Shown here in pieces: positions 3,233 through 42,175 of a DNA stretch of 64,000 bases. Made by a program: the position numbers and the translations under genes. Each line of letters starts with the position of its first letter. The first letter of the stretch is position 1. The notes below the pieces were generated by a model. It was not told the DNA's origin, did no database searches, and saw only the letters and a program-made list of their open reading frames with translations. The stretch covers positions 314,758 to 378,757 of the forward strand of contig JAGORL010000001.1 of assembly GCA_018062825.1 (NCBI GenBank), written 5' to 3'. Origin of the DNA: Patescibacteria group bacterium. GTDB taxonomy: Bacteria; Patescibacteriota; Patescibacteriia; UBA9934.

Positions 3233-3243
3233 CTCGCGGCCTT

Positions 3244-3712: not shown

Positions 3713-3757
3713 ATGTAGCAATAAGAAGACCCCGTCTGCCTTGCGGCTGACGGGGTC
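3713..3757 (-). terminator. Intrinsic terminator after the beta-propeller gene.
   Basis: GACCCCGTC-(13 nt)-GACGGGGTC 9-bp stem. The minus-strand read is followed by TTCTTATTGC. Confidence 0.6.
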
Positions 3758-3801
3758 AGAGAGATCGGACAACCACGTGAGGTGATCGTCATGTGGTGCG
3801 G

Positions 3802-4971
3802 CTACGGCAGCGGATCGCCGCGGTCGTCCACCCGGATCTCGAAGATGACGAACGGCGACGGGTCCGGCACAGGGGATCCGACGAGCACGTCATCGACAGC
3901 ATGGTTCACCACGTAGGCGCGCTTCTTGTCCGGGTGAAGCGCGATCGTGGACGGCTGCACGAAGGAGACGTTGACGTTCTCCGGCTGAGTGATGCGATCG
4001 ATCTCGTAGGGGTCGAAGTCGCACTCGTTGAGGCCCGAGATGACGCTCACGGAGTTGTCGCCCGCGAGCACCGCGTACAGGTCACCGTTCTGCGCGAACG
4101 CCAGCCCATCGGGCAGGTCATTCAGGCCGTACTCGTACACGATCTCCGGGGTCTCGCCGAGATCGTTCAGTGGCACGCGGTAGATCTTGCCGGTCGCTCC
4201 GGGAGCGCCGGGGAAGGGCACCCCGCCCGTGAACGCGAAGTAAAGGTACTCGCGCTCCGGATCGAGCTTGATGCCGTTCATGCCCAGGCGCCCGCCTCCG
4301 AAGAAGCCGAGCAGCGGGTCCACGATGACCGGCACGGGCTCACCACCACCCGGGGGAACCATGAAGATGATGCCCTGGATGCTGTCCGTCACGTAGAGCT
4401 CGCCCGCCGGGCCGACGACGATCCCGTTCGGGACGGACGGCGGCAGGCCGGGAATGGGCGGCACCTCGATGAGCTGCGGGAAGGGCGTCGACGTGTGCAG
4501 CGACTGGGTCCAGGTGGGCCCGAAGCACGTGTCGACGATCGAGAACTTCACCACACCGAGCTGGGTGCTGTTCACGTACAGGTTGCCATCCGCGTCGAGC
4601 GCGGACTCGCTGAAGGCGTGCTCGAACAGGATGTTCTCGCCGTCGGCCTCGAGCGTGTCGATGAGGTCACCGTCGTTGAGATCGTAGACCCGAACCCAGG
4701 AGGCCGGTAGGCCGGCGGTCGGCGAGGCGGCCGGACCGGTCACGTACAGGAGCTCGCGGTCGTAGTCGACGACCACGCCTTCGGGCCATTCGTAGCCCGC
4801 CGGCATGGTGGCGAAGATCTCCGCCGAGCCGACGTTGCCCTGACCGTTGTTGTGACCACCGCCATGGCCACCACCGTGACCATGACCGTTGTTGTGACCA
4901 CCGGGTGGCCCGCCGTGGGCGAGCGTGGTGGTCGGAATGATGAGTAGAAGCGTGAACAACAGCTGACGCAA
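3802..4971 (-). CDS. Secreted beta-propeller protein (SMP-30/gluconolactonase/LRE-like or NHL-like repeats) with an N-terminal His/Gly-rich tract.
   Basis: Signal peptide MRQLLFTLLLIIPTTTLA. Then HGGPPGGHNNGHGHGGGHGGGHNNG (a putative metal-binding tract). Repeated ...LYVTDS.../...GDLYAV... blade-like motifs. TTG start with AGAGAGG upstream. ~65% GC. Confidence 0.5.
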   Translation of the reverse strand: MRQLLFTLLLIIPTTTLAHGGPPGGHNNGHGHGGGHGGGHNNGQGNVGSAEIFATMPAGYEWPEGVVVDYDRELLYVTGPAASPTAGLPASWVRVYDLNDGDLIDTLEADGENILFEHAFSESALDADGNLYVNSTQLGVVKFSIVDTCFGPTWTQSLHTSTPFPQLIEVPPIPGLPPSVPNGIVVGPAGELYVTDSIQGIIFMVPPGGGEPVPVIVDPLLGFFGGGRLGMNGIKLDPEREYLYFAFTGGVPFPGAPGATGKIYRVPLNDLGETPEIVYEYGLNDLPDGLAFAQNGDLYAVLAGDNSVSVISGLNECDFDPYEIDRITQPENVNVSFVQPSTIALHPDKKRAYVVNHAVDDVLVGSPVPDPSPFVIFEIRVDDRGDPLP

Positions 4972-5062
4972 CTCGAACCTCTCTGAACTAGCATCTATTG
5001 ATGCGCCTCGTTATGAGGCGGCGAATAGTATAGTGTTCAAAAACAAGATAGCCAAACGAGTA

Positions 5063-8640: not shown

Positions 8641-9321
8641 TTAGTACTCTGTCGGTATCGGTGTGGTTGCTGATCCTACGGTGTACTCTCCCCAAACACG
8701 TTTTGATCGTTCTTCAAAGGCAGCGCGAGCAGCAGGGAGTTTGGCAACAAGGATGGCGGGCAAAATCTTGTAAATCTGCTCAAGCACCTCCGGAGCTACT
8801 CCTTGCATGCTCCAAGAAAATCCTTCGGCATACATTGCGGCCACCTCATCATCAGTAATAGGAGGAAAGCCAGCGTTGTCGCGAAGTGCTGGTGTGATTT
8901 GAGCCTCCTCAAACGCTAAGTGCTCATCGATCAACGTTTTAAGTCCATGAAGCACTGCTTCTGCCTGCTCAGGGTGTGCTAGATCAGCAAATGCTGCATC
9001 CCCGCGTTCAAGTACCGGATCAATGTGATGATGCTGTTCGGTCAGTTGATCAAGTGCTGCGGCAAGATCAGCATGCTTACTACGAATATCAGGAAAGATA
9101 TTCGTATCTTCCATAGTGTGATGACCGTGGAGCGCTTGGCGATAGCTCGTATTCCACTCATTGCGTACATGCTCAGCGCGTGATGTATCGCCAGCCTTAA
9201 TCTGCTCCACCGCACGAATGAATCGCGCAATATCACGACGAAACGCATGGTGAGAACTAAGAAGCAGAGTAGCCATGGAGGCCGTACCGTCGTCATTTAA
9301 GAAGTTGGGAGCTAAAGGCAT
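8641..9321 (-). CDS. Hemerythrin-like (HHE cation-binding) domain protein.
   Basis: Motifs HH..EDTNIFP and further H...H pairs typical of the hemerythrin/HHE fold. Confidence 0.55.
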   Translation of the reverse strand: MPLAPNFLNDDGTASMATLLLSSHHAFRRDIARFIRAVEQIKAGDTSRAEHVRNEWNTSYRQALHGHHTMEDTNIFPDIRSKHADLAAALDQLTEQHHHIDPVLERGDAAFADLAHPEQAEAVLHGLKTLIDEHLAFEEAQITPALRDNAGFPPITDDEVAAMYAEGFSWSMQGVAPEVLEQIYKILPAILVAKLPAARAAFEERSKRVWGEYTVGSATTPIPTEY

Positions 9322-9334
9322 ATGCTGATCAAAT

Positions 9335-9712
9335 TTACTCTTTACGTAAAACCTTCTCCATCACTTTTCCTCTTGCCAGTTCATCGATCAACTTATCAAG
9401 GTAACGAATCTCACGCATAGTCGGCTCCTTAATATCCTCTACCCGAACGCCGCACACAACACCAGTAACTAAGCTGCGTAGGGGATTCATGCGCGGAGCT
9501 TTGGCAAAGAACGTTTCAAAGTCCGTTTGCTTCTTGATTTGAGACTCAAGTCCTTTCTGGGTATAGCCGGTGAGCCAACGAATAACCTGATCGACCTCAT
9601 CTTTGGTTCGGCCTTTGCGTTCTACCTTTGTAATATAAAGAGGATAGACGCTCGCAAAGCTTGTGGTGTAGATGCGATGTTTTTGTGGTGAACCGTTCTG
9701 ATCATTGCGCAT
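9335..9712 (-). CDS. DUF2200-family protein.
   Basis: Family-typical N-terminus ([37 protein letters not shown]). Confidence 0.55.
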
Positions 9713-9717
9713 AAAAT

Positions 9718-10035
9718 TTATTTTGTACTCTTCTTGCCCTTACGGTTCAAGATACCTTGGACCGACGGGCTAATCTTCTTGTCTGTTCTGTGAGTACAGC
9801 CAAGCCAGCAGCATGGTCGACGTTGCCCTTCTTTGAGTTCATCAATCATGCGTTCAACGTGTTCTTGCCTTGTTTCTACCTTCTTAACAAAAGTCACCCA
9901 ACAGATCCACTCATTACGAGCAAGGGGTGTAAGGCTCTCCCAGGCCGCGAGCGCGCCTTTGCTCTTCATGAGCGCTTGGCGGATATCGGGCGTGAGTTTA
10001 TGAGCAGTGCCGTTTGAAATAGTGGTGCTGAGCAT
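9718..10035 (-). CDS. YdeI/OmpD-associated family protein (DUF1905-like).
   Basis: C-terminal signature [12 protein letters not shown]. Confidence 0.55.
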
Positions 10036-13779: not shown

Positions 13780-14910
13780 GTGAGCGAAAATGATTCAGAG
13801 ATTAACTTCTTCATTGAAGATTCAAAGCTCTACACTCTTTGGGTTTATTCACGACCCGATTTTTATCCAAGAGAATATTTTGGAATTGGCGAAATCACTC
13901 CTGCACAATACGACCATAAGGCAATTTTTAACTTTCTTAGAATAAGGCTGAAGATGGCCGATGTTCAGTTCAAAAGCTTTAATGCCTACGGCGATAACGA
14001 CTACTCAAAGATGGCTCTCCCACCCACGGATGCTACGCTTAAGGGATGCGATGATAAGCAGAAAAAAGCTATCCTAGCGGCCTGCAAGAAGTTTCGATCT
14101 GAACCATTCGGGTTAAAAGAGATCGACCTTCTACTTCCTTACTATTACAGCTTGTTTGATTATTTTTACTGGCGACCGTCCTTAACATCTACAGAACTGG
14201 CGAAAATTAAAACTCACATAAACGAGTACATTGATTTGTTTCTGAATACGGAACTCTTCGTTTACAACAGAAACTATTTTATTTTCGAAAAACAAAAACA
14301 GGTATTCATTGAACGATTAAGAAAGATGTCCGCTATCGAAAATTTTGGCTCGAATTTTATTGTTAGCGAAACCGCTAAGGGATATGAAAAGACCGAATCA
14401 CAAAACGGTTTCCTCTTCATTCACACGCTATATGCCCTGCAGAAGCTAAACTATATTAGTGTAATACGATTGTGGCATGAACGAACGGATACAGGACACA
14501 CTTTCCATGCAAACATTGTAATTTTTGATACCTTAATCGAGGAAGTAAATAACAGCTACAAGAAGGACAATCCTAAAAACGTTATAGATAAATTTGATGA
14601 AAAGAAAGGCGTTCTAAAGTTCGCTGAGCAGGAGATAGAGCTTTCAAAGAAGGGCAAGCAGACTGATGCGGTTCTTTTAATGAAAACTCTCCTCAAAACT
14701 GAAGGCGACGACTGGAAACACAACGACGAAATATTAACTGATTGGGGCTATAACGACGATGATCAGAAGGGAGTAGCGAAAAACAAGGTCTATTATGCAG
14801 GCCAAAAGATAAATAATGCCGTGGAACTCAAAACAAAGATAGGCGATTTCATTGAGTGCAATACTTCAAAGGCTCGAATCAATCCCAAATATAGAAAAGT
14901 TGATGAATAA
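13780..14910 (+). CDS. Hypothetical protein (376 aa), island cargo.
   Basis: AT-rich ORF followed by a terminator at 14954-14982. No family recognised. Confidence 0.5.
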   Translation: MSENDSEINFFIEDSKLYTLWVYSRPDFYPREYFGIGEITPAQYDHKAIFNFLRIRLKMADVQFKSFNAYGDNDYSKMALPPTDATLKGCDDKQKKAILAACKKFRSEPFGLKEIDLLLPYYYSLFDYFYWRPSLTSTELAKIKTHINEYIDLFLNTELFVYNRNYFIFEKQKQVFIERLRKMSAIENFGSNFIVSETAKGYEKTESQNGFLFIHTLYALQKLNYISVIRLWHERTDTGHTFHANIVIFDTLIEEVNNSYKKDNPKNVIDKFDEKKGVLKFAEQEIELSKKGKQTDAVLLMKTLLKTEGDDWKHNDEILTDWGYNDDDQKGVAKNKVYYAGQKINNAVELKTKIGDFIECNTSKARINPKYRKVDE

Positions 14911-15121: not shown

Positions 15122-16255
15122 ATGATTGATACCGTCTGCCTCCTTATTCCCCTGAACCATGTCGTCTTTCTCGACAAAGCCAATAAAGAGATTCCTGATT
15201 GGGACTTACATTCTAAGACTGAGAACTATCAAAAGTTCGTCAGAAACCCTACAAAAAAGGATAAGGAAAGTGGCCTATATTTTCCACGGATTACACTCTA
15301 TCAAAGACGTTACCAGCGTGAAATCAATGTAAAAATAGAGTTCTCAGCTCCAAAGCTACTGTACGAAAATAATCTTGAAGAGCTAAAGGATTCCGACTTC
15401 GATAAGGTAATTGATCTATTACAGGATCGGCTCAAGCGCATGGGATTAAGGGTCTTCCGTAAGTTCTTAGTTGAAGCCGACGTTTCTTCGATCCATTACT
15501 CCAAAAATATCCTGCTTTCGGATGGCTATACGGCTAGTTATCTGATAGCAGAAATGAGCAAGATTGATCTAAGAAAGAGCTTCGATTTTGCCCGTGCTCG
15601 CTACATCAATGACGGTCAAAGCCTGTGCGCCCATACCTCATCTCACGAGCTAGTCATATACGACAAGGTAGCCGATTTGAATAAGGGCAAGAAAAGGGCA
15701 ATTGACCGAGATCGAACCCCGTATCAAACGAGTCTATTCGCCGACTTGAAGAACGCGAAGAAGCTGATAGAAATCTTGCGGTTTGAAATTCGGCTCGGTA
15801 AAAAAGAGAAAATTAAGAGCCTACTCCTGAAATTAGGTCATCAAAAAAAGGTTGCCTTTGCCGAGATGTTCAATACAAGGCTTAGCCAGCAGGTAGTAAC
15901 CCACTATTGGGAAAAGATTATCAGCGCAAAAACCAACGGTCTATTCATTATTCCACCAACACATAAAGACCTGTTACGAGAGATCTACCGAGTTCAACCA
16001 GAGGTCAAACCTAGCCGCGCGTTCTATCTAGTCGGCTTATCTGCATTAGCAAAGGACGGAAACGGTATACGAGAGCTGAGGAGTATCCTTACAGGCAAGA
16101 CAAACGCAAGGACTTGGTATCGGATAATCAAGGATCATCGTGATTTTTCCAAGGCTATTTCAGCAAGCAAAGTCAGAGATTGGGTTTATCAGATAGATCA
16201 ATCCCTAAAGAAGTATGAGCCACTAACACGTTCCACATACGAAATTGCTGTGTAA
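15122..16255 (+). CDS. Rep_trans-family rolling-circle replication initiation protein.
   Basis: Signature blocks ...SSHELVIYDK... (the RIYDK-like block) and ...EILRFEIRLGKK... (the R.E.EL block), as in pT181 RepC and ICE/phage Rep_trans proteins. Confidence 0.5.
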   Translation: MIDTVCLLIPLNHVVFLDKANKEIPDWDLHSKTENYQKFVRNPTKKDKESGLYFPRITLYQRRYQREINVKIEFSAPKLLYENNLEELKDSDFDKVIDLLQDRLKRMGLRVFRKFLVEADVSSIHYSKNILLSDGYTASYLIAEMSKIDLRKSFDFARARYINDGQSLCAHTSSHELVIYDKVADLNKGKKRAIDRDRTPYQTSLFADLKNAKKLIEILRFEIRLGKKEKIKSLLLKLGHQKKVAFAEMFNTRLSQQVVTHYWEKIISAKTNGLFIIPPTHKDLLREIYRVQPEVKPSRAFYLVGLSALAKDGNGIRELRSILTGKTNARTWYRIIKDHRDFSKAISASKVRDWVYQIDQSLKKYEPLTRSTYEIAV

Positions 16256-16285: not shown

Positions 16286-16468
16286 ATGCACACGGAAGAA
16301 AGTAAATTCTATACATCTCAAGAACTTTCAAAAGTCTTGAAAGTCAATATCATGACCATTTATCGCTATATTAAGGCTGGCAAGTTACAGGCTTATAAAA
16401 TAGGCAAAGAATATCGAATTGCTGAAACTGAGTTTACAAGGTTTTTGAATGAAGCTAGCACCGAATAA
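16286..16468 (+). CDS. xis: Excisionase-family helix-turn-helix DNA-binding protein (HTH_17 / Xis-like).
   Basis: Classic pattern over 60 aa: YTSQELSKVLKVNIMTIYRYIKAGKLQAYKIGKEYRIAETEFTRFL. Confidence 0.7.
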   Translation: MHTEESKFYTSQELSKVLKVNIMTIYRYIKAGKLQAYKIGKEYRIAETEFTRFLNEASTE

Positions 16469-16471: not shown

Positions 16472-17443
16472 ATGGAGGAAAAACTACGAGCAAAAAACAA
16501 CAGAACAACCTTCGTTAGAAGTGAAGAAGTCTTGGAATTGAAGAAAAAGATAGTATCAGGAGATCAGCTGACAAGCGATATTTATAACAAGACGATCTGG
16601 GGGAGGCTTGAAGACGTTACTGTGAAAATCCCTGAGGGGGTTGTTGATCTCCTATTCATCGATCCGCCGTACAACCTAAATAAGGACTTCGGCAATAATA
16701 AATTCCGTGAACTTTCAGGCGATGACTATCAAGTTGTTTTTGAAAAATGGCTACTATCAATAATGCACACCTTAAAGAAGAACGCCTCGGTGTATGTTTG
16801 TTGCGATTGGAAAAGTTCCCCAATGATCTTTAATGTTTTAGATAAGCATCTCAAAGTACGAAATCGCATTACTTGGGAACGCGAAAAAGGGAGGGGGGCT
16901 TTGAGTAATTGGAAGAATTGCTCAGAGGATATTTGGTTCGCTACAGTCTCTGATGATTATAAATTTAACGTTGAGGCCGTAAAACTAAAGAAAAAAGTCA
17001 TCGCACCATACAAAGAAAACGGTCTAGCAAAAGACTGGGCAGAAGAAAGTGACGGAAAATTTAGATTAACTCATCCTTCGAATCTTTGGACGGACATCAC
17101 TATTCCATTTTGGTCGATGCCAGAAAATACTGACCATCCTACACAAAAACCAGAAAAATTAGTCGCAAAAATACTGCTTGCTTCAACACATAAGGATGAT
17201 GTTGTACTCGATCCCTTTCTGGGATCAGGTACGACATCCGTTGTTGCAAAAAAATTAGGAAGGAAATATATCGGCATTGAAATGAACGAAGAATATTGCT
17301 GTCTCGCAGAAAAACGTATTGCTATGGTTGATAAGAATCCGACTATACAAGGGTATCTAGATGGGGTCTTCTGGGAAAGAAATTCTCTAATTGAACAAAA
17401 AGATTCCAACGGAAGCACGGCCTTTAATGCAACGCTTATATGA
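16472..17443 (+). CDS. Type II DNA methyltransferase, beta class (motif IV DPPY precedes motif I); probably an N6-adenine MTase, N4-cytosine not excluded.
   Basis: DLLFIDPPYN (motif IV) comes first, with DPFLGSGTT (motif I, FxGxG) near the C-terminus. This is the circularly permuted beta order of PF01555-type methylases. Confidence 0.8.
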   Translation: MEEKLRAKNNRTTFVRSEEVLELKKKIVSGDQLTSDIYNKTIWGRLEDVTVKIPEGVVDLLFIDPPYNLNKDFGNNKFRELSGDDYQVVFEKWLLSIMHTLKKNASVYVCCDWKSSPMIFNVLDKHLKVRNRITWEREKGRGALSNWKNCSEDIWFATVSDDYKFNVEAVKLKKKVIAPYKENGLAKDWAEESDGKFRLTHPSNLWTDITIPFWSMPENTDHPTQKPEKLVAKILLASTHKDDVVLDPFLGSGTTSVVAKKLGRKYIGIEMNEEYCCLAEKRIAMVDKNPTIQGYLDGVFWERNSLIEQKDSNGSTAFNATLI

Positions 17444-18603
17444 TCGATGATGAAGTGTTAGATTTGATAGCCTTTCTAAAGGCCAAAGATGGCATAGGCA
17501 ATAAAGCTTCTCTAATGAAGGCTGTGTTGGATCAATTTAGATTAACGAAAGATCGATCTGTTTACTACTCTGAACATCTTGCTATTCGTTTTAGCTCATC
17601 GGGATCAACGAGTTTTTCTAACACCGTACTCTCCCTATCAAATCTCCAGAAATTCGACGAACTTCCATTCTTGGTGTGTCTCGTCACTCCAAATACAAAT
17701 GTTATTTACCTAGCAAACTCAACATTCCTTATAAAAATTAGTCACAGTTCGCAACAATTACGGATCGACAATATCCGTGGAAGCTTCAACGGTTCAGATA
17801 TTTGCAAAGTATTTAATGACCTACCGAACTCACCCGAAAACTTTGAAAAGCTATTTGCCATTCATGAAGAATTGGGCTTTGCTGAGAATCTTCCCCGTCT
17901 CGTTGAAGCGACGACTGGTATTGTTCCTTCAGGGAAGAAGTTTGATGTTTCGAACGAAGGAAAAAAGATGATTTTATCAGCTCCCGAAAGAGCGGTCGAG
18001 TTCATCAACTCAAGTGAATACATCGAGTTAAAGACCCATCTAGACGAGATGGTTGCACGTTACAAAGATGAAATCCTGATTGCAGGATTCATTGAAAACG
18101 TAAATATACGAGGAAGAATAATCGAATACCTTATCGCAGGCGAAGACGAAGAATTACGAGCTACACTAGTTAGTGAACTACGCAAGGAAGGTAGCAAGGT
18201 CTCACGCTTCGCAACGAAAAACGACTTAGGCGATTATGTTCGCATTTTTGACAAATTTCATACCGCAACAGATGTTAAGACAAAAATCATGGTCTTAAAA
18301 TCAAATCCAAAAGCCTACAACATCGATAAAATTCTGCATTTTCTTACGCATGAAAAAAGTGTTTTCATGTTTTATTTCATTGGAATTGAGCCTAACAAGA
18401 TCGTCGCACAAGTGCTGGTTTCTGTGTTCCAAAAAGACCTACTCAGGTCAACCATTCTCTTGAAACATTGGGCTGGCAGAAACTCACGAGGTGTTACTCA
18501 ATTCGAAGGTGAAACTATCCATAAACTAATCCTCTCATCAAATAATGATATCGACCTTAAGGAAAGTAAAAAATTCCTCAGAGAGTTGATTGAGCTGGTT
18601 TGA
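17440..18603 (+). CDS. Putative cognate Type II restriction endonuclease (387 aa, no recognisable motif).
   Basis: The start overlaps the MTase stop (ATGA), which suggests co-transcription. Its size and position fit an R subunit. The sequence itself gives no family assignment. Confidence 0.4.
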   Translation: MIDDEVLDLIAFLKAKDGIGNKASLMKAVLDQFRLTKDRSVYYSEHLAIRFSSSGSTSFSNTVLSLSNLQKFDELPFLVCLVTPNTNVIYLANSTFLIKISHSSQQLRIDNIRGSFNGSDICKVFNDLPNSPENFEKLFAIHEELGFAENLPRLVEATTGIVPSGKKFDVSNEGKKMILSAPERAVEFINSSEYIELKTHLDEMVARYKDEILIAGFIENVNIRGRIIEYLIAGEDEELRATLVSELRKEGSKVSRFATKNDLGDYVRIFDKFHTATDVKTKIMVLKSNPKAYNIDKILHFLTHEKSVFMFYFIGIEPNKIVAQVLVSVFQKDLLRSTILLKHWAGRNSRGVTQFEGETIHKLILSSNNDIDLKESKKFLRELIELV

Positions 18604-18616
18604 ATTGGTCGTCCTT

Positions 18617-20175
18617 ATGAAAGCCGTAATTCTTGCTCGGGTTTCAACTGAAGAGCAGAAGGATGCAGGAAACTCTCTTCCTGCACAGATTGAGCGTATT
18701 CAATCTTACTGCCAAAGAAAAGGATTCGCCGTAGCAGAGGTATTTAGCTTTGATGAAAGCGCATATAAAACTAAACGTGATGAGTTCGATAAGATTTTAG
18801 AGTTCCTAGAAAAGACCACAGAAAAGATTGCAGTTTGTTTCGATAAAGTTGATAGGCTCTCACGCAACGTTTTTGATAAACGTGTTTCCACGCTCTACGA
18901 AAAGGCAGTCAACGATCAGATTGAGCTTCACTTTGTCTCAGACGGACAGATCATCAATAATCAAATGTCGGCCGTAGAAAAGTTTCAGTTCGGCATGAGC
19001 TTGGGATTGGCTAAATACTATTCAGATGCTATCAGCGATAACGTAGTACGGGCATTTGAACAAAAAAGACGTGATGGTGAAATTACTGGTCGCTGTCGGA
19101 TCGGCTACATCAATGCCCTTGACCCAATGGGCAATAAAACTGTCTCCCCCGATCCTGACAGATCGCACTTGGTAATAAAGATTTTCGAGATGTACGGTAC
19201 AGGCAATCACTCAATGAAGACTATTCTTGAAGACCTTACCAAAGCTGGGTTGCGAAGTAGGGATGGTTTTAAGCTCTCGAAAAGCAGTATTGAGAACATC
19301 CTACGGGAACCTTTTTATCACGGGATCGCTCGATCCAAGAAATATAATCAAGACTATCCGCACAAGTACGAACGGTTGATCAGTAAAGAGCTTTTTGACC
19401 GTTGCCAAAAAATCAGACTAACCAGAAAGAAGGAGCCATATAAAGCTCTCTCTAAAGATTTCATTTTCAAAGGCCTACTTCGTTGCCAAAACTGCAATTG
19501 CACGATGACCCCTGAAATCAAAAAGGGACGCTTTATTTACTATTCCTGTACCAACTCCAAGGGACAATGCAAGCGGGTCTATGTGCCAGAGAATCAGCTC
19601 CTAAAGCCCGTATACGACGTTCTGAGCCGTTTGTCTGGTATCTCAGAAGGAATACAGAACCTTCTCGTTACAGAGCTTCGTAAGACCACAGAAGCCGAGG
19701 TAGCCTTTCATCAGGCTCAGCTTGGACGTATTCGAAATGAGCAGGATCAGTTTACTAAGCGAAAGGACGCTTTGCTCGACTACCTTCTCGACCAGAGTAT
19801 TACTAAGGAATTACTAAGGATCAGTATGACAAGAAACTGCAAGAGATCATGGACAGGCTTCAGACCCTCAGCCTTGAATTAGAAGAACATTCACGGGCTG
19901 ACTATGATTATCAAACTACAGTAGCTACGGTACTTTCCCTTGCTCGTCGGGCAAAGGATATTTTCGATAGTTCTGAAAACCACGAAAAGAGAGCCTTTAT
20001 AAACTATCTCATTCAGAACCCAACCGTAGCAGGTAAGGAACTTGTCTTTAACCTCAGAAAGCCTTTTGATTTAGTGCTAAATCTTGCAGATGAACAAAAA
20101 AAGACGGTCAACGTTTCCGCTGATCGTCCTTCTTGGCTCGGGGGGTGGGGATCGAACCCACGGCCAATTGGTTAA
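18617..20175 (+). pseudogene. Large serine recombinase (resolvase/invertase N-domain plus recombinase and zinc-ribbon domains), frameshifted by an 11-bp tandem duplication at 19799-19820. The 3' end overlaps tRNA-Asn.
   Basis: N-terminus AVILARVSTEEQ (catalytic Ser). Central recombinase domain and a Cys-rich motif (CQNCNCTM...C). The reading frame switches to the +2 frame (ORF 19849-20175) exactly at the duplicated ATTACTAAGGA. Deleting one copy restores ...LDQSITKDQYDKKLQEIMDRLQTL... Confidence 0.75.
19799..19820 (+). repeat. Exact 11-bp tandem duplication (ATTACTAAGGA x2) that frameshifts the serine recombinase.
   Basis: Direct reading of the sequence: tATTACTAAGGAATTACTAAGGAtcag. Confidence 0.9.
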
Positions 20176-20208
20176 CAGCCAACTGCTCTGCCGCTGAGCT
20201 ACCCCCGA
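20134..20208 (-). tRNA. tRNA-Asn (anticodon GUU), 75 nt, with CCA encoded.
   Basis: Minus-strand read: UCGGGGG-UA-GCUC-AGCGGCA-GAGC-A-GUUGG-CUGUUAA-CCAAU-UGGCC-GUGGG-UUCGAUC-CCCAC-CCCCCGA-G-CCA. All stems pair. U1-A72 and G73 are as in bacterial tRNA-Asn. Confidence 0.9.
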
Positions 20209-20320
20209 ATATATTGGGTTGAATTGAACGGGGAAATAATACCCACATCCTAAAAAAATGACAAGTCGGTCCGCTATGGGCATGTGGGCAACGGATATAT
20301 GAAGAATGTCCATTATTTCA

Positions 20321-20349
20321 TTGACAAAATCTCAAAAATAGGGTATATT
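20321..20349 (+). promoter_or_regulatory. Consensus sigma70 promoter: TTGACA, 17-nt spacer, TATATT.
   Basis: Perfect -35 hexamer at 20321-20326 and -10 at 20344-20349. An RBS, GAGAGG, precedes the ATG at 20390. Confidence 0.6.
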
Positions 20350-20389
20350 CGTAACTCGCACTTTCGCGAGGATAGTTGAGAGGTACGCC

Positions 20390-20767
20390 ATGAGCAGCAG
20401 CCCTGCACTCCTGCCAGTCGCAAGCGACAAGAGCGGCGACGAACAGTCGGGAGTCACGACTCTCGACTTCCTCCTGAGCATCGACGGCACGAGCGCCGGC
20501 GTTCGTAGGCGTTACGAGAAGGAAGGATTCGGAAGCATCGTGACCACCTGGACGGGCTCCCTCGAAGAGTTCAGTCGGGCGTTCCTCACCGCTGTCAACG
20601 TGGACACCAAGGAGGTGCACATCATCCTCCAGCGCTGCACGTCACAGTACAAGCCGGGAACGATCGAGGGGCGCAGGATGGTCGGCGAAGCCACGTTCAT
20701 CATGTCCAACCGCATGTTCAACGAGGTCTACGACCGCGTCTGCCCGCCTCCCGAGGTCGCACACTGA
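20390..20767 (+). CDS. Hypothetical protein (125 aa) in a GC-rich islet, located across tRNA-Asn from the AT-rich island.
   Basis: Strong promoter, RBS and terminator. ~60% GC. No family recognised. Confidence 0.55.
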   Translation: MSSSPALLPVASDKSGDEQSGVTTLDFLLSIDGTSAGVRRRYEKEGFGSIVTTWTGSLEEFSRAFLTAVNVDTKEVHIILQRCTSQYKPGTIEGRRMVGEATFIMSNRMFNEVYDRVCPPPEVAH

Positions 20768-24460: not shown

Positions 24461-27400
24461 CTACTGCATGAGTCGACCTGGGCCAAGTGGGTCGTAACCG
24501 TACTTCACCTCAATGCCGTCATCGTAGCCATCACCATCTGTGTCACGTTTCCTAGGATCGGTTTGCATCATGAGCTCTGTTTGATCCCAGAGGCCATCGC
24601 CGTCGGTATCAATCTCGAGCATGAATGGTGCGGTACCTGGGCCAAGTGGATCATAGCCACTGCGCACTTCAAGACCGTCATCATAACCGTCATCGTCACT
24701 GTCAGTACTTGTTGGATCAGTACCCATGAGGCGCTCGATAGCGTCACGCAGGCCATCGCCGTCATAGTCGGCATTGAGAAGCGTTGGGTTGAGTCCAGGA
24801 CCAAGCGGATTGTAGCCATTGAGAAGCTCGATCTGGTCATTGTAACCATCGTCATCTGAGTCTGGGTTAGCAAGATCAAGACCAAGGAATGATTCTTCGT
24901 GATCAGCAACACCGTCTTCGTCGTAGTCGGTGGTGATAACGATGCGCTCAGGGAAGGAAAGATCAACGATCTTGTCACTACCAACCGCAAGGTGAGAATC
25001 ATGCCACAAGATGGTGTCTACCTTTGGCTGGCCCTCGTAGTACACAGCCATACCAATCTGGTGGTGCCACGAGGCTTCCATTGGGCGAACCGAGATGGTA
25101 ACGCTCAAGCAAGCACGTGGATCAACGTCGATCACAACGTCATCGTAGTCAAAGTCTGTTCCTTTGTCTTCAATGCCGTAGATCAGTGTTTCTCGCTCCG
25201 TACGAGTAACCGTAGCGTATTCAGAGAAGGCACTACGCTTGGTACCGTCCGGATTAATAATGTACAGGTCGTAGGTGATTGCCTGGTTGAGTGCTGCTCG
25301 GCGATACATGTGCTGCGCTGCGAGGAAATCCTCGTAGCCAGTGATGTCTGTGCCAAACGTGACGTCAAAGGTGTCTTGCGGGAACAGGGTGATCACATAG
25401 TCATACCACTCATCACCAAAGTTCGCTTCTGCGGCTTCCTCAGTTGCAAGCCAGCGCAGGGTGGCGGTTCCGGTATTGGCGCCATCGTCGGTAATAACGT
25501 AGACGCGCGGGCTTTCCGGGAACTTTACAAGAACCGAGTAAGCGCGAGGGAACATGAGTCCACCTGGAGTAGCTGCTGCAATGATTTCATCAGCAACGTA
25601 GGTGAAGGTACCGCAGCCATCTGAGTAACTTAGATAGGATTGCAAGTCAGGGAATGCGCGCAGCGTGCCGTCTTCTGTAATGAAGTACACAGCACTGTCA
25701 TCTTCGGTTCGTACAAACTGTTCGTTGCCATACTCAGGAATTTCTGGATCGGTAGGCGTCTCTGGGTCAGGAGTCACAGGTGAGGAACAGTCGGTAGTGG
25801 TATCTACCGTAATCGTATCGGTAAGTACCGTAGAGGTTGCGCCACTTGTGCTCTTGAACCGCACATACACCGTGCGGGTGCCGTCACCCGTATCAAGAAG
25901 GGTCCAGGGAACTGTCATGGTGTAAATCTTCTTGCCGTCGGTGCCGGTTGGGGTAGGGGCGTCCTCATCCGCCACGAAGGCTGTCCAAGTTGAGCCTGCA
26001 AATGAACTATCGTTTGAGATCGTCACCTCGCTGGCGTTCGAAGCCTTCAGGGTGAGGGTTGCTAGTGGATCAGGCGTACATGGGTCACCAAGGTCAATGA
26101 TAACCGAGGCGTTACTCGTTTGAACCGGAGAAGGTCCACCTCCGCCACCGCCTCCACCTCCGCCACCGCCTGAAGTGTCGTTATCAATAACGCTCACGGC
26201 CTCGTTGCTGATTGAGATGTCGTCATAATCAAGATCTGCTGAGGCGGCGGAATGGGTAAAGATAGTTGCTTCTGGTGAGCTTTCATCTGTTCCGTCGTCA
26301 ACCGCGGTAACTGTCACGGTTTGTGGCGTATCCCAGTTAAGTGCAGTGAAGACAAGCGACGTGTCATCTGCGGTAGCATCGGCATTCTCGGTGATAGTGA
26401 TGGTAACGTCTGCCGTCGGCTCTGTATCAAGAACAATCGTGTAGGTGTCGGTTGCGCCACCCTCAGTCACTTCTGAGGAAAGAGGGGAGACAGTCACTCC
26501 AGGCGTTGGTCCACCACCGGCGGCAGTGAAGTCGATACGTTCAACGACTGGACCGGCGCTAGTCTGGGTGTTGTTGTAAAGCGTAATGGCAATGTCTAGT
26601 GTATTTGTTGTAACAGCAGAGAAGCCATTAGCATGCGACCACTCGGACTCAGTCAGTCCTTCTACAAAAGCGCTATCCATTGGGCTGTTGCCGCTTTCTA
26701 CAGTGCCAAGTGAAATAGCGGCCTGCATGGTGTTGTCAGGTGAAGCAACCCAGATACCGGCATCATAGTAGTACCAATTACCATCAACGCCACCGTGATC
26801 TGCGGCAAGTCGAGAGGCGATCGTTTGCCAGCCGCCATCATGAACGACGAATGAATCGCGATCATCAAATGAGAAGCTGTAGTATGCGGCATTAACCTCA
26901 GCTGATGTGAAGTCAACGACATCCACCATAGAGATGCCGCTCCATGAGCTTACGTCTTCTTGACCAGCATCAGTGGTGACAACGGTGTAATACCTGGCGT
27001 ATGGGGAGTAATCTTCATCGAAGTGAAAAAGCGTCTCGTAAGTGGAATAGTACATGTCTGCTCCGCTGAATTCCGCAGAAAGAACGCCTGAGAACTGATG
27101 CTCGTCAGTAAGGGTGAGGTCGTCTATCCACTGTTCGCCAAGTCCTCCGGCATTCATTGAGGCGGTAAAGACACGTGTATCGTCACTAATGGCGATATCT
27201 GCAAGTCCGCCACCGATAACGGTATTTCCCGTCCAAAAACTCAGATCAAGCGGATCAATGACAAGTCCGTCAGCTAGTTCATCAAGTTCATTGAATATCA
27301 GTACTGCCTCAAAGATTGGATCGTACTCAATCACGTGTTCGTAGGAGAAGTAAAATGGCAGTTCAATGAGCGATGCTTCCACTGTTCCTCCAATCGGAGC

Positions 27401-30400
27401 AAGAGTGGTGGCGTCAAAACGTGCGATAGCAAAACCATTATTAACAACAACCCAAAACTCATCATTAATCGGCTCGTAAGTAAGGTAGCGAGCCTCCCAT
27501 GATCCCTGAGAAGGGTCATGCCCGCTAATAGTGAAGGCAAGCGACTGCGTATCGTCGATGGATCCATCGACAGGATCAATTAACATGAGTTCATTGGAGA
27601 AATACGTGGTAGCAACCATCTGATCAATATCAGCAAAATAGTAGATGCTATTGATGTCGGAGACAGGGTAGGTAGCAAAGAGTGTGCCAGTGGTGGCATT
27701 GTAAACATCAACTTCATCATACTGCTTGACCCACACACGCTCACGCACGGTATCAATGGCAAAATCAAAGCTTTCACCAAAAAGATCAACCTCAAGATCG
27801 ATAGCGTAGAGCTCGGTGTCTGTATCTGGATCAATGGCACTGAGCGATGCATTTTCAGAGAAGCTATAACCACGAAGTACCCAGAGCACACCGTCATTCG
27901 GGTTCACTTTAATGTCAGCGATCTGTGAACTACCCTCCCCGGCGCCACCTTCAAAAGTAGTATAGCCAGCTACTGTTAGCCCGACATCATCATTGGTAAG
28001 TTCAAGAAGGCCTGTTTCAAGTGACGTACAGAATATCTCCTCGAGAGTGCCGCCTGTATCAGGATATGGAGCCGCTTCACCTGGGTCAGCGCCAACGCTT
28101 GAAGCATCATCGAGCGTGGCATATTGATCGCCATCAATATACTGATGACAAGAGGGAAGGTGCTTTACTTCAGAAGTTACATCCTCATGCGCCCATTCGC
28201 TAGTGCTATCGAAGTCAAAAACAGCAGTCCCGCCATCATTGTCGGCGTTGATCATGAGGAGATCCGCAGGATCAAAGCCATTGTATCGAGTGTCCGCGGA
28301 CGTAGCGGCACCGAGGGTGACGGTGTACTCAATGCCCGCATCGTTGAGGAGGTCATTTTGACCGGTAACAGTGATCGTTTGCGCAACGTTCCAGTTAGCA
28401 GGGGTGAAGGTAAGTGATGACGGGCTCACTGTTCCCTCGGACGTATCTGTAGAGGAAACAGCAATGGTGACGTTGGCGGTTGGCGATCCTGACAGTACAA
28501 CATCAATTTCATGAGTACCTCCAGCCTCTGTTGTAGAGCCAAAATTTTGAATCGGTAAAATAAAACCAGGGTAGTTGAAGATAATCCCAGAAGTATTGCC
28601 ACTGTCGGCGCAGCCAATGTGACACTGAATATCTGTGCCACTTATTTGGTCAATATCTTGGATGTCAGCATGGTGAAGCATGACGGTGCCAAGTGGTTCA
28701 AAGTTTGCGGGCACGCCAGGCGTTGCGGATGCAAATTGAAGCTTCGGTGTAGGCGTATCATTTGCGATGCCCTTGGTTCGAAAATCACCATTCACCGTGA
28801 AGGTATCGCCTGCTGTTATAAGAAGTTCATTATCAGTATTCGTTTCCCAATAAACTTCAAAATCATTTACCTCGATATCGCCAGTGATGACGTGAGAAAC
28901 GGTAGACGGTCCATTAACGTTACGCTTCATGGATATGTAGCCACTCGTGGTATCAAATGTTGCCGAGGCACCCTTGCTCAAACTATCAGAAATAATAATG
29001 AGTCCGTCGCCGGCATCAAAGCTACCATCGGTAATAAGAAGACTACCGCCAATATCGAGCGTTTCACCGGTTCCAGGGCCGTTAGCTGATGCTGAGGCGT
29101 TATTCAGCTGAAGGCCAGGTAAGTAAGCGATGGTGTTGGCGTAGTCGAGCGTAAGCGTTGTTGCTCCGGAGATGCGAATCAAGCCGGTACCTCCAAAGCC
29201 GACTATCTGCCCAATATTTGCATCAAGCACAACGGTATCTCCGGAAACAGCAACAGTTCCGTCGTTAAGCGTTCCTCCATCCATCATGAAGGAATTTTCA
29301 ACGTTGACAGTATCTCCGGTACCGATATTGGTGGCACCAAAGCTTTTATCAATGTGAAAATCGTAGAGATCGATCGAGTTAACAACATCGATGTCAATTT
29401 GATTGTTACCATCAACGACAAGTGAACCGTTGTTGTGCATGAAAGTCGCGTCATCGCTTATGGATAATCCAGAGGTTCCAAACTGCGCAGAGATATACAT
29501 GGTCGCCGATGGCGCAGTGAATGCCGCGTCTCCCGACAATGTGACGTCACCATTGTTGAAATCAAGGTTTCCGGCGCCACCAGTAAAGGTACCGGTAGTC
29601 ATGGTAAGCGGTCCATCAAAAAGAACGGTGCCAGAGGATGGTCCTACTATTTCACGAGTGGAATCTACGATGAGTTCTGGCATTTGACCGTTGCCAACAA
29701 GCGTAATGTCACTCGCGCCATTTGTAACGTGAATCTGACCGCCACCTCCATCAAAAGTACTGGAATGGATGAGGTCGCCAGATGTAACTTCAAGAACAAT
29801 GTTGCAAAGGTTACCGTTCGTAAGGGTGAGCGTACCAAAGATGACCCACGTTGGGCCGTCACCAGATGACAAACAGTCAATGTCGGAATCCCAAGCAACC
29901 GTAATGCTATCGAATGTTGGATCGGGATTGATGAGCGATGTCCCGCCATTGCCATCAAAGATAATCGTGCCAGTATCAGGATCAAAGTTCACGAACTCAT
30001 CAACAGCTGTAATTGATTCTAATGTTAGATTACTTGTAGGTATAGTAAAACCGGCGGTGTCAGTGAGTACTAAGTCATGAATAATGGTGAGATTGCCGGC
30101 GTCACCAATGAATGTGCCGTCACTCATTATAAAATCATTATCAATTTGTACGGTGCCAGAAGACGGACCAAGGATGTTACGGTCAACACTTAAGTTTATA
30201 GTTGGCATGAAGCCACCAGGAACGAGGACAATATCGGTGCTGCCGGCAGTAATAGTAAGAGTGCCGCCATTGCTTTCACCGCCATCAAAGGTGGCAGTAT
30301 GTACAATCTCAGCTTGAGCCTCAATCGTACCGGTGCTGATATTGCCGTTTGTGAGCGTGAGTTCGCCAGTGACAATCAGGGTGTCGCCGCTTGAAACAAT

Positions 30401-31012
30401 AAGAAAAATGTTCGATCCGACCATGGCTAATTCCATGTCGTTAAAAGTCTCCGTAACGTTCACGTTCACGGTGCGATTTGCTGAGCCGTCAAACTCAAAC
30501 TTACCGCTATTATGATTGAATATGCCGCCCGCGGTATGGGTAAAGTTATTATCAATGAAAAATGTGCCCGAAGTTGAGGTAAACGTACCTCCAGCTAAAG
30601 TAAACGTACCATTGAGGTCAATATCTGTAGTGCCTCCAAGGAACGTTCCAGCATCCTGAGCAAAATTTCCACTACCAATAGTAAGTGTTGCACCAAGGCT
30701 ATTGGTAATAGTGCCCGAATACCCAGAGTTGATATCAATACCCTGAATGCTACCGGTAAAAGTAGCATCAATGGTGGCATCTTTTGAGGAAGTGCCATCA
30801 AAGGTAGCGACATCGCCAGCGCCTGGCTCGGTATCGCTGCTCCAGTTTGCGTCCTCGCTCCAGTTGTTGGTAGCGCCGCCACCATCCCAGGTGCGAACTG
30901 CGGCAAAAGCCCCAGTTGGAGCAAGGAGTACAAGGCCAAAGACAGCACCGAGCCCAGCGAGAATTGCGAGGCGAAGGGTGGGTAAAAGGCGGGGGGAGAA
31001 AGATGACATCAT
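24461..31012 (-). CDS. Giant secreted cell-surface repeat protein (2183 aa): N-terminal signal peptide, beta-helix-like Gly/Thr-rich repeats, two Calx-beta-like domains, a Gly12 run, and C-terminal thrombospondin type-3 calcium-binding repeats.
   Basis: Signal peptide ...LLAPTGAFAA. Calx-beta-like segments end ...INADNDGG and ...VIDNDTSGGGGGGGGGGGG. TSP3-like repeats include DSDDDGYNDQIELLNGYNPLGPG, DSDDDGYDDGLEV and DTDGDGYDDGIEV. AAGAGG RBS. Confidence 0.7.
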   Translation of the reverse strand: MMSSFSPRLLPTLRLAILAGLGAVFGLVLLAPTGAFAAVRTWDGGGATNNWSEDANWSSDTEPGAGDVATFDGTSSKDATIDATFTGSIQGIDINSGYSGTITNSLGATLTIGSGNFAQDAGTFLGGTTDIDLNGTFTLAGGTFTSTSGTFFIDNNFTHTAGGIFNHNSGKFEFDGSANRTVNVNVTETFNDMELAMVGSNIFLIVSSGDTLIVTGELTLTNGNISTGTIEAQAEIVHTATFDGGESNGGTLTITAGSTDIVLVPGGFMPTINLSVDRNILGPSSGTVQIDNDFIMSDGTFIGDAGNLTIIHDLVLTDTAGFTIPTSNLTLESITAVDEFVNFDPDTGTIIFDGNGGTSLINPDPTFDSITVAWDSDIDCLSSGDGPTWVIFGTLTLTNGNLCNIVLEVTSGDLIHSSTFDGGGGQIHVTNGASDITLVGNGQMPELIVDSTREIVGPSSGTVLFDGPLTMTTGTFTGGAGNLDFNNGDVTLSGDAAFTAPSATMYISAQFGTSGLSISDDATFMHNNGSLVVDGNNQIDIDVVNSIDLYDFHIDKSFGATNIGTGDTVNVENSFMMDGGTLNDGTVAVSGDTVVLDANIGQIVGFGGTGLIRISGATTLTLDYANTIAYLPGLQLNNASASANGPGTGETLDIGGSLLITDGSFDAGDGLIIISDSLSKGASATFDTTSGYISMKRNVNGPSTVSHVITGDIEVNDFEVYWETNTDNELLITAGDTFTVNGDFRTKGIANDTPTPKLQFASATPGVPANFEPLGTVMLHHADIQDIDQISGTDIQCHIGCADSGNTSGIIFNYPGFILPIQNFGSTTEAGGTHEIDVVLSGSPTANVTIAVSSTDTSEGTVSPSSLTFTPANWNVAQTITVTGQNDLLNDAGIEYTVTLGAATSADTRYNGFDPADLLMINADNDGGTAVFDFDSTSEWAHEDVTSEVKHLPSCHQYIDGDQYATLDDASSVGADPGEAAPYPDTGGTLEEIFCTSLETGLLELTNDDVGLTVAGYTTFEGGAGEGSSQIADIKVNPNDGVLWVLRGYSFSENASLSAIDPDTDTELYAIDLEVDLFGESFDFAIDTVRERVWVKQYDEVDVYNATTGTLFATYPVSDINSIYYFADIDQMVATTYFSNELMLIDPVDGSIDDTQSLAFTISGHDPSQGSWEARYLTYEPINDEFWVVVNNGFAIARFDATTLAPIGGTVEASLIELPFYFSYEHVIEYDPIFEAVLIFNELDELADGLVIDPLDLSFWTGNTVIGGGLADIAISDDTRVFTASMNAGGLGEQWIDDLTLTDEHQFSGVLSAEFSGADMYYSTYETLFHFDEDYSPYARYYTVVTTDAGQEDVSSWSGISMVDVVDFTSAEVNAAYYSFSFDDRDSFVVHDGGWQTIASRLAADHGGVDGNWYYYDAGIWVASPDNTMQAAISLGTVESGNSPMDSAFVEGLTESEWSHANGFSAVTTNTLDIAITLYNNTQTSAGPVVERIDFTAAGGGPTPGVTVSPLSSEVTEGGATDTYTIVLDTEPTADVTITITENADATADDTSLVFTALNWDTPQTVTVTAVDDGTDESSPEATIFTHSAASADLDYDDISISNEAVSVIDNDTSGGGGGGGGGGGGPSPVQTSNASVIIDLGDPCTPDPLATLTLKASNASEVTISNDSSFAGSTWTAFVADEDAPTPTGTDGKKIYTMTVPWTLLDTGDGTRTVYVRFKSTSGATSTVLTDTITVDTTTDCSSPVTPDPETPTDPEIPEYGNEQFVRTEDDSAVYFITEDGTLRAFPDLQSYLSYSDGCGTFTYVADEIIAAATPGGLMFPRAYSVLVKFPESPRVYVITDDGANTGTATLRWLATEEAAEANFGDEWYDYVITLFPQDTFDVTFGTDITGYEDFLAAQHMYRRAALNQAITYDLYIINPDGTKRSAFSEYATVTRTERETLIYGIEDKGTDFDYDDVVIDVDPRACLSVTISVRPMEASWHHQIGMAVYYEGQPKVDTILWHDSHLAVGSDKIVDLSFPERIVITTDYDEDGVADHEESFLGLDLANPDSDDDGYNDQIELLNGYNPLGPGLNPTLLNADYDGDGLRDAIERLMGTDPTSTDSDDDGYDDGLEVRSGYDPLGPGTAPFMLEIDTDGDGLWDQTELMMQTDPRKRDTDGDGYDDGIEVKYGYDPLGPGRLMQ

Positions 31013-42158: not shown

Positions 42159-42175
42159 ATGGCCGCATTCTATCG

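What the first reader, a model, noticed from the sequence alone, without database searches (positions are those of the whole stretch)
19799..19820. Serine recombinase inactivated by an exact 11-bp tandem duplication
ATTACTAAGGA occurs twice in tandem at 19799-19820. Removing one copy fuses ORF 18590-19882 to ORF 19849-20175 into one ~520-aa large serine recombinase (...LDQSITKDQYDKKLQEIMDRLQTLSLELEEH...).

As the sequence stands, the integrase is a pseudogene and the island is probably locked in place. Alternatively, a slipped-strand duplication or deletion could act as an on/off switch for excision.
Basis: seen in the sequence. Interest (0 to 1): 0.7.

Follow-up and report, generated by a model that had tools for sequence, protein, structure and literature searches.

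The report
Frameshifted serine integrase beside tRNA-Asn
An exact 11-base tandem duplication breaks the reading frame of the integrase gene of a small mobile island beside a tRNA-Asn gene in a Patescibacteria genome, which is ordinary gene decay; the more interesting point is that this whole integrase family sits on the 3' ends of tRNA genes, which is unusual for serine integrases.

Summary
ATTACTAAGGA occurs twice in exact tandem at 19799-19820. Deleting one copy restores a 515-aa large serine recombinase (LSR) that aligns end to end with hundreds of intact 500-530-aa homologues. Against a 79%-identical intact gene, the 11 bases are the only internal indel. The break falls at the tip of the coiled-coil hairpin, so the second coiled-coil helix and a conserved C-terminal subdomain are lost. 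None of 81 related loci has a frame break. The codons after the break still look constrained (dN/dS about 0.05). A second public assembly record carries the same two-copy allele. I read this as a real, recent, lineage-private frameshift: ordinary integrase decay, not a designed switch.

The context is more interesting. The island has a Rep_trans-like protein, an excisionase-like HTH protein, a Type II R-M cargo and the LSR. It abuts tRNA-Asn(GTT), and the LSR ORF runs 42 nt into the tRNA, with its stop codon on the complement of the anticodon loop. In 52 of 81 related loci a convergent tRNA overlaps the LSR end in this way, and five carry a 15-24-nt direct repeat of the tRNA 3' end bounding a 3.8-9.7-kb island. 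The window has no such distal repeat, so its left boundary is unresolved.

The parts
19799..19809 (+). Copy 1 of the 11-bp unit ATTACTAAGGA; read as I-T-K in the N-terminal frame
   Evidence: absent from the aligned intact homologue L001
19810..19820 (+). Copy 2 of the 11-bp unit; read as I-T-K(D) in the original C-terminal frame
18617..19882 (+). Truncated LSR ORF as it stands: 421 aa (397 native residues + 24 out-of-frame), identical to NCBI MBP9827865.1. It keeps the catalytic domain, the recombinase domain, the zinc ribbon and the first coiled-coil helix.
19807..20175 (+). C-terminal remainder of the LSR in its original frame (open from 19807; the ORF call starts at ATG 19849). It holds the second coiled-coil helix (residues 397-440), the conserved C-terminal subdomain (442-492) and a disordered tail.
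20134..20208 (-). Intact tRNA-Asn(GTT). Its 3' 42 nt are overlapped by the end of the LSR ORF. The LSR stop TAA (20173-20175) is the complement of U35-U36-A37 of the anticodon loop.
   Evidence: ARAGORN; Rfam tRNA 69.3 bits; sequence
20134..20152 (.). Inferred island-borne att core: the tRNA 3' segment from the CCA end to the T-loop. This is by analogy with the 15-24-nt direct repeats in L014, L015, L024, L048 and L067; no second copy exists in the window.
   Evidence: relatives; absence in the window. Inferred, not shown.
16286..16468 (+). 60-aa excisionase-family HTH protein (HTH_17), a candidate directionality factor or regulator; conserved in 66 of 81 related loci
   Evidence: TIGR01764 46 bits against a 28.8 cutoff; PHROG excisionase hits
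15122..16255 (+). 377-aa conserved core protein with a rolling-circle replication initiator (Rep_trans/RepD-like) fold; conserved in 66 of 81 related loci
16472..17443 (+). Type II DNA methyltransferase (N6_N4_Mtase), cargo
17440..18603 (+). Type II restriction endonuclease, cargo; it occupies the HTH-LSR cargo slot seen in relatives
   Evidence: PADLOC PDLC03461 E 1e-149, full length
13780..14910 (+). 376-aa protein of unknown function shared with a few related islands (7 loci); probably island DNA

Best explanation
A genuine, evolutionarily recent 11-bp tandem duplication, most simply a replication-slippage or misalignment event, was inserted after codon 397 of the large serine recombinase of a small integrative element. 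The element consists of a Rep_trans-like protein, an excisionase-like HTH protein, Type II R-M cargo and the LSR, and it sits at the 3' end of tRNA-Asn in a Patescibacteria genome. The shift of +2 nt terminates the protein after 24 aberrant residues, exactly at the tip of the coiled-coil hairpin. This removes the second coiled-coil helix and about 95 further conserved residues. The coiled coil governs synapsis and directionality in LSRs, and truncations in the zinc-ribbon region abolish DNA binding. The product is therefore most likely unable to carry out controlled excision, so the element is effectively fixed; its R-M cargo and the tRNA it reconstitutes remain intact. Shown: the duplication, the frame break, continuity of the repaired protein, position in the fold, privacy to this lineage, recency. 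Inferred: loss of activity, immobility of the island, the slippage mechanism.
For: Exact tandem 11-mer. It is the only internal indel against a 79%-identical intact gene. The repaired protein covers homologues end to end and keeps all 60 family-invariant residues, including S10 and the four zinc-ribbon cysteines. Pfam architecture is Resolvase + Recombinase + Zn_ribbon_recom. The AF2 model (pLDDT 78) has the coiled-coil helices at 359-391 and 397-440 with the tip at 392-396, and Foldseek matches the SPbeta, Bxb1, PhiC31 and LI integrases. None of 81 related loci has a frame break. Downstream of the break, dN is 0.073 against 0.061 upstream and dN/dS is about 0.05, so there is no relaxed selection yet. 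The same allele is in a second assembly record. There is no LSR paralogue in the window. Coiled-coil and zinc-ribbon roles come from PMC3783163 and PMC5499577.
Against: No read-level data could be examined, and the two public records may derive from the same sample. A clean coiled-coil deletion of LI integrase keeps DNA binding and promiscuous recombination, so complete loss of function is not proven. A trans-acting LSR elsewhere in the genome cannot be excluded from a 64-kb window. The island's distal boundary is undefined, so 'locked' cannot be verified directly.
Confidence: 0.78

Rival explanations
1. Assembly or sequencing artefact: the true sequence has one copy and the integrase is intact.
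For: The source is a metagenome-assembled genome and no reads are available. Neither the one-copy nor the two-copy allele was found in JGI metagenome contigs, so there is no confirmation from a demonstrably independent sample.
Against: The two-copy allele is present, with 100% identity over 1,156 bp, in a differently built assembly (a 1.2-kb contig of GCA_020054605.1 against a 406-kb MAG contig). By general knowledge, an exact 11-bp non-homopolymer tandem duplication in unique coding sequence is not a typical short-read or long-read error mode.
Confidence: 0.09
2. Reversible slipped-strand on/off switch: the population toggles between one and two copies to control excision of the island.
For: By general knowledge, perfect tandem duplications can revert precisely by slippage. 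The gene shows no other lesion and no relaxed selection, which is also what a reversible state would look like.
Against: There are only two copies of a complex 11-mer, not a multi-unit tract. No relative has a repeat, an indel or a frame break at this site (0 of 81). Both available records show the two-copy state. No distal att site could be found for excision to use.
Confidence: 0.04
3. The gene still yields a functional recombinase, either by +1 ribosomal frameshifting between 19810 and 19880 or by non-covalent assembly of the 421-aa N-fragment with a 108-aa C-fragment restarted at ATG 19849. The break is in a surface loop at the coiled-coil tip.
For: The split lies in the hairpin loop. An in-frame ATG lies 28 nt downstream, preceded by aagag. 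The C-terminal codons are still conserved.
Against: No recognisable frameshift motif or strong Shine-Dalgarno sequence is present. A restart at M409 would lose residues 398-408 of the second helix. No family member is organised as two genes. Conservation downstream is explained equally well by recency.
Confidence: 0.04

Closest known systems
Large serine recombinases / serine integrases (Listeria A118/LI Int 4KIS, SPbeta SprA, Bxb1, PhiC31)
   Same: Same domain order: Resolvase catalytic domain with S10, recombinase domain, four-cysteine zinc ribbon, and a coiled-coil hairpin inserted in the zinc-ribbon domain. Foldseek E values are 1e-18 to 1e-13 against full-length LSR structures. An excisionase-like small protein is encoded nearby.
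   Different: Only 12-17% identity to solved LSRs, and sequence search reaches only the catalytic domain. There is an extra conserved C-terminal subdomain (residues 442-492). The gene's 3' end overlaps a tRNA gene, whereas characterised LSRs target protein-coding or intergenic sites. This copy is frameshifted.
tRNA-gene-targeting genomic islands of tyrosine integrases (Williams 2002 sublocation classes; Islander/TIGER)
   Same: The integrase gene is at the island edge next to the 3' end of an intact tRNA. The island carries a replacement tRNA 3' segment. A displaced 15-24-nt copy sits at the far end in relatives, with identity ending in the T-loop. The islands have lower GC than their flanks.
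   Different: The recombinase is a serine integrase, not a tyrosine integrase. No tyrosine recombinase is present in the att-bounded relatives examined. Mageeney et al. 2020 found tRNA/tmRNA use by only 14 of 297 S-Int islands and called it previously unreported and in need of experimental proof (PMC7192596).
Integrase pseudogenes in degenerate prophages and islands
   Same: A single frameshift truncates the integrase while the cargo (here an R-M system) stays intact, which is the usual first step of domestication or immobilisation.
   Different: Here the lesion is demonstrably young: it is the sole defect and purifying-selection signatures are retained downstream.
Integrative mobilizable elements with Rep_trans-type initiators/relaxases (streptococcal IMEs, PMC5357655 title and abstract)
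   Different: Different host phylum and no sequence-level Pfam match. The catalytic tyrosine, the origin and any mobilisation function were not tested.

Membership tests
Large serine recombinase (serine integrase) | N-terminal Resolvase catalytic domain with the nucleophilic serine | tested here: met
   PF00239 77.4 bits, residues 3-155; R8, S10 and other residues invariant in 120 sequences
Large serine recombinase (serine integrase) | Recombinase domain followed by a four-cysteine zinc-ribbon domain | tested here: met
   PF07508 59 bits and PF13408 39.4 bits; C290, C293, C311 and C318 invariant
Large serine recombinase (serine integrase) | Coiled-coil hairpin inserted in the zinc-ribbon domain | tested here: met
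   Met for the repaired protein: AF2 helices 359-391 and 397-440 and fold matches to LSR structures. In the sequence as it stands the hairpin is cut at its tip.
Large serine recombinase (serine integrase) | Uninterrupted reading frame encoding all domains | tested here: not met
   The 11-bp duplication shifts the frame after K397, with a stop at 19880-19882
Large serine recombinase (serine integrase) | Catalyses attP x attB recombination | not testable with these tools
   Needs a recombination assay
tRNA-targeting integrative island | Integrase gene adjacent to the 3' end of an intact tRNA gene | tested here: met
   tRNA-Asn at 20134-20208 (-) overlaps the LSR end by 42 nt. The same geometry is seen in 52 of 81 relatives and in Legionella and Neochlamydia homologues.
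tRNA-targeting integrative island | Direct repeat of the tRNA 3' segment at the distal end (attL/attR pair) | tested here: not met
   The window has no repeat of 12 nt or more and no local alignment above shuffle background, and lacks the conserved distal arm motif. The feature is met in relatives L014, L015, L024, L048 and L067.
tRNA-targeting integrative island | Composition distinct from the flanks, with cargo genes | tested here: met
   GC is 0.39-0.44 over about 10-20 kb of the window against about 0.49-0.50 in the flanks; Type II R-M cargo
Slipped-strand phase-variable (contingency) locus | Multi-unit simple-sequence tract in the coding region or promoter | tested here: not met
   Exactly two copies of a complex 11-mer
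Slipped-strand phase-variable (contingency) locus | Copy-number polymorphism within or between populations, or the tract conserved in orthologues | tested here: not met
   Both records have two copies. 0 of 81 orthologous loci have the repeat or a frame break. Read-level heterogeneity could not be tested.
Rep_trans rolling-circle initiator (for the 377-aa core protein) | Rep_trans fold | tested here: met
   [not shown]
Rep_trans rolling-circle initiator (for the 377-aa core protein) | Catalytic tyrosine and a cognate double-strand origin | not tested
   No residue-level superposition or origin search was done; there is no Pfam hit

The most novel reading that the evidence does not exclude
The broken gene is a decaying member of a very large and, as far as my literature searches found, uncharacterised clade of serine integrases that target the 3' end or T-loop of tRNA genes. 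The targets are mostly tRNA-Asn, with Asp, Gln, His, Glu, Leu and Tyr also seen. The clade occurs across Patescibacteria and reaches Legionella and Chlamydiae. In this clade the attP core lies inside the 3' end of the integrase gene, so integration can swap the last codons of the protein for ones templated by the host tRNA, and the stop codon is often the complement of the anticodon loop. These would be minimal Rep_trans + Xis-like + LSR islands that ferry R-M systems between ultra-small bacteria. They would also be the first systematic, testable case of tRNA targeting by LSRs.
Probability: 0.55. Interest if true: 0.6.

Novelty: new member of a known kind. Interest (0 to 1): 0.33.

Why it matters
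The lesion itself matters little. It is one more integrase pseudogene, useful mainly as an annotation correction: MBP9827865.1 is the N-terminal 77% of a frameshifted 515-aa LSR. It also marks this island as probably immobile.

The context could matter more. Serine integrases are prized genome-engineering tools, and their natural targets are thought to be protein-coding or intergenic sites. A huge clade that instead uses conserved tRNA 3' ends would widen the known target range. More than 1,700 homologues are 60% or more identical in Patescibacteria alone. Such a clade would offer integrases with attB sites already present in many genomes. It would also provide a natural vehicle and landing site for genetics in Patescibacteria, which are hard to manipulate.

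Tried and rejected
(1) I searched the window for a displaced tRNA 3' fragment or distal att site using exact k-mers of 12 nt or more, Smith-Waterman alignment against shuffles, and the L015/L024 arm motif with 3 mismatches. Nothing was found, so the left boundary of the island is unresolved.

(2) Two scans of JGI metagenome contigs found nothing: one for either allele (gapped pattern) and one for the 29-nt two-copy junction. I therefore have no independent-sample confirmation and no one-copy allele of this population.

(3) An exact look-up of P0005 on contigs found nothing. The C-terminal fragment look-up did yield the second record, L082.

(4) Sequence search of the PDB reached only the catalytic domain, so mapping the coiled coil needed a structure prediction.

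(5) I tried to use shared accessory genes (DUF2200, OmdA, hemerythrin) as synteny anchors to the P0001 contig. Their order and orientation differ, so they were not informative.

(6) I hoped the faecal 'Bacteriophage sp.' contigs would be excised attP circles. They are integrated copies next to tRNA-Glu and tRNA-Leu.

(7) Programmed frameshifting was considered and rejected for lack of any motif.

(8) Pfam, PHROGs and NCBIfam gave nothing for the 377-aa, 376-aa and 198-aa proteins.

Full report
**1. The observation**

Positions 19799-19809 and 19810-19820 are two exact, adjacent copies of ATTACTAAGGA (TRF: period 11, 2.0 copies, 100% match).
- The 11-mer occurs nowhere else in the window on either strand.
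- The flanking bases do not extend the repeat.
- Only 1.7% of 300 Markov-simulated 64-kb windows contain any exact tandem duplication with a unit of 11-14 nt.
- It is the only long exact duplication in the window whose unit is not a multiple of three.

Deleting one copy yields one ORF. It is 524 aa from TTG 18590, or 515 aa from ATG 18617, which is the start shared by all homologues.

**2. The gene is a frameshifted large serine recombinase (LSR)**

The repaired protein has Resolvase (77 bits), Recombinase (59 bits) and Zn_ribbon_recom (39 bits) domains. A search of 5.8 billion proteins returned 1,752 hits among the candidates scored. The best 120 are nearly all 497-547 aa, cover 94-100% of the query at 60-90% identity, and those that carry names are mostly from Patescibacteria.
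- All 60 invariant columns of a 120-sequence alignment are kept, including R8, S10 and the four zinc-ribbon cysteines.
- At the nucleotide level, the 11 bases are the only internal indel across about 1.55 kb against the intact gene in L001 (79% identity).
- The only truncated protein among the listed hits is P0005 (421 aa, 100% identical). This is NCBI's own call for this locus, MBP9827865.1, from a 406,338-bp Patescibacteria contig.

**3. Where the break falls**

An AlphaFold2 model built from 120 sequences (pLDDT 78) has the canonical LSR layout. The coiled-coil hairpin is formed by helices 359-391 and 397-440, with its tip at 392-396 (DQSIT). Foldseek's best PDB hits are full-length SPbeta, Bxb1 and PhiC31 integrases and the Listeria LI integrase C-terminal domain (E 1e-18 to 1e-13).

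The frame shifts after K397, exactly at the hairpin tip. The product keeps 397 native residues, adds 24 aberrant ones, and lacks three things:
- the second coiled-coil helix;
- a family-conserved subdomain (442-492);
- the C-terminal tail.

In the LI integrase the coiled coil mediates site selectivity and directionality. A clean coiled-coil deletion still binds att sites and recombines promiscuously, whereas truncations in the zinc-ribbon region lose DNA binding (PMC3783163; PMC5499577). Loss of controlled integrase function is therefore likely, but it is inferred, not shown.

**4. Real, recent and private to this lineage**

- A 1,156-bp contig of a separate assembly (GCA_020054605.1, JAHZTR011240134.1) is 100% identical to window 19506-20661 and contains both copies. 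This argues against a one-off assembly error, although the two records may share a sample.
- None of 81 related loci (80 GTDB genomes plus L001) shows a frame break in its LSR.
- Against L001, dN is 0.061 upstream of the break and 0.073 downstream. Downstream dN/dS is about 0.05, so there is no relaxation yet.
- The window contains no LSR paralogue.
- Two scans of JGI metagenomes found neither allele.

I conclude that this is a young frameshift mutation. The switch idea lacks every defining feature of a contingency locus: there is no multi-unit tract, no conservation of a repeat in orthologues and no observed polymorphism.

**5. The element it belongs to**

Upstream of the LSR, on the same strand, lie:
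- a 376-aa protein of unknown function (13780-14910);
- a 377-aa protein (15122-16255);
- a 60-aa excisionase-family HTH protein (16286-16468; TIGR01764, 46 bits);
- a Type II methyltransferase (16472-17443);
- a Type II restriction enzyme (17440-18603; PADLOC E 1e-149).

**6. The tRNA overlap (noticed in passing, and the most interesting result)**

The LSR ORF ends 42 nt inside a convergent, intact tRNA-Asn(GTT) at 20134-20208. Its stop codon TAA (20173-20175) is the complement of U35-U36-A37. The conserved C-terminal peptide DRPSWLxGxxSNPRP is thus the translated complement of the acceptor and T arms, and it is predicted to be disordered.

Of the 81 related loci:
- 52 have a convergent tRNA overlapping the LSR end: 42 Asn, 5 Gln, 3 His, 2 Asp. 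The overlap is stereotyped, mostly exactly 42 nt, otherwise about 57-66 nt.
- 9 more are cut by a contig end within 80 nt.
- Several of the remaining loci have a tRNA 3' half followed by a group I intron (5 of the 7 scanned). Such introns are a known feature of Patescibacteria tRNA-Asn and tRNA-Asp genes (PMC13011429).

In L014, L015, L024, L048 and L067, an exact 15-24-nt direct repeat of the tRNA 3' segment lies upstream. It runs from the CCA end to the T-loop and bounds a lower-GC island of 3.8-9.7 kb. In L014 the distal copy is preceded by a terminator-like hairpin. The ORFs examined in L014, L015 and L024 include no tyrosine recombinase, and the HTH-LSR slot holds Type III or Eco57I-like R-M genes or Ddl.

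Relatives at 31-36% identity show the same arrangement: faecal contigs with tRNA-Glu and tRNA-Leu, a Legionella adelaidensis replicon with tRNA-Asn (30-nt overlap), and Neochlamydia pS13 with tRNA-Tyr.

The inference is that these are integrative elements whose LSR recombines in or near the tRNA T-loop, with the attP core inside the integrase gene's own 3' end.

On the literature: Mageeney et al. [quoted passage not shown] The Durrant et al. 2022 LSR census does not mention tRNA. My other searches found no description of this clade.

**7. What remains open for the window**

No distal att repeat, no displaced tRNA fragment and no conserved distal arm could be found within the 20 kb upstream or anywhere else in the window. 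The left boundary of the island is therefore undefined. This absence is not unusual, since only 5 of the 52 tRNA-adjacent relatives show a repeat within 10 kb. Together with the broken integrase, it fits an element that can no longer excise.

**8. Verdict**

The lesion is an ordinary, young integrase frameshift; it is neither a switch nor a new mechanism. The interest score is low to moderate, and it rests mainly on the family context rather than on the duplication.

Noticed in passing
window 20134-20208 (-) with LSR end 20134-20175; loci L002-L081, L083-L086: Family-wide overlap of the LSR 3' end with a convergent tRNA 3' end. It is seen in 52 of 81 loci (42 Asn-GTT, others Gln, His and Asp), and the overlap is mostly exactly 42 nt, with the stop codon on the complement of the anticodon loop. 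It is also seen in 31-36%-identical relatives in faecal contigs, Legionella adelaidensis and Neochlamydia. tRNA targeting by large serine integrases is regarded as essentially unreported (PMC7192596).
   Followed up: yes
L014:1806-1824, L015:3783-3797, L024:2409-2432, L048:5287-5302, L067:2956-2974: Exact 15-24-nt direct repeats of the tRNA 3' segment (CCA end to T-loop) bound low-GC islands of 3.8-9.7 kb. This places the likely crossover in or near the T-loop and the attP core inside the integrase ORF. L015, L024 and L022 share a conserved distal arm, CTCGACTAAAA.
   Followed up: partly
L026:11543-11823, L063:4755-5013, L069:7139-7428, L007:11549-11790, L042:6464-6734 (all minus strand): Group I introns (Rfam RF00028, 55-88 bits) interrupt the tRNA next to the LSR, which is why ARAGORN misses those tRNAs. 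Introns in Patescibacteria tRNA-Asn and tRNA-Asp genes were described in mSystems 2026 (PMC13011429), but that paper does not mention the adjacent recombinase islands.
   Followed up: partly
window 16472-18603 (+): A complete Type II restriction-modification pair (MTase plus a 387-aa REase, PADLOC E 1e-149) sits in the cargo slot between the HTH and LSR genes. Relatives carry Type III or Eco57I-like R-M genes or D-Ala-D-Ala ligase in the same slot.
   Followed up: partly
[not shown]
   Followed up: partly
L047, L052, L055, L071, L023, L041 (LSR 3' ends): In these loci the LSR ORF diverges from tRNA-like sequence right after TGGCTC and continues into a conserved non-tRNA coding extension. L055 also has a second LSR, 30% identical, beside a tRNA-Asn 8 kb downstream. 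Possible explanations are tandem islands, other targets or a different crossover position.
   Followed up: no
many loci, e.g. L003, L004, L022, L027, L028, L030, L036, L050, L062, L065, L076, L080 and L001: Contigs often end within about 100 nt of the LSR/tRNA junction. This is what assembly breaks at a junction that varies within a population would look like.
   Followed up: no
window 26135-26171, inside ORF 24461-31012 (-): An exact in-frame 18-bp tandem duplication (TCCACCTCCGCCACCGCC, 2.1 copies) lies inside a giant 2,183-aa ORF. A similar proline/glycine-type repeat is at 58557-58589.
   Followed up: no
window 3000-5000 and 42000-44000: Local GC peaks (0.62 and 0.58, against a background of about 0.50). 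The 3-5 kb block contains overlapping long ORFs on both strands, one with an NHL repeat.
   Followed up: no
window 8641-10035 (-) compared with the P0001 contig: The accessory genes hemerythrin, DUF2200 and OmdA lie left of the island here, but right of the tRNA in the 90%-related P0001 contig. They are in a different order and orientation, so the neighbourhood of this tRNA is rearranged between relatives.
   Followed up: no
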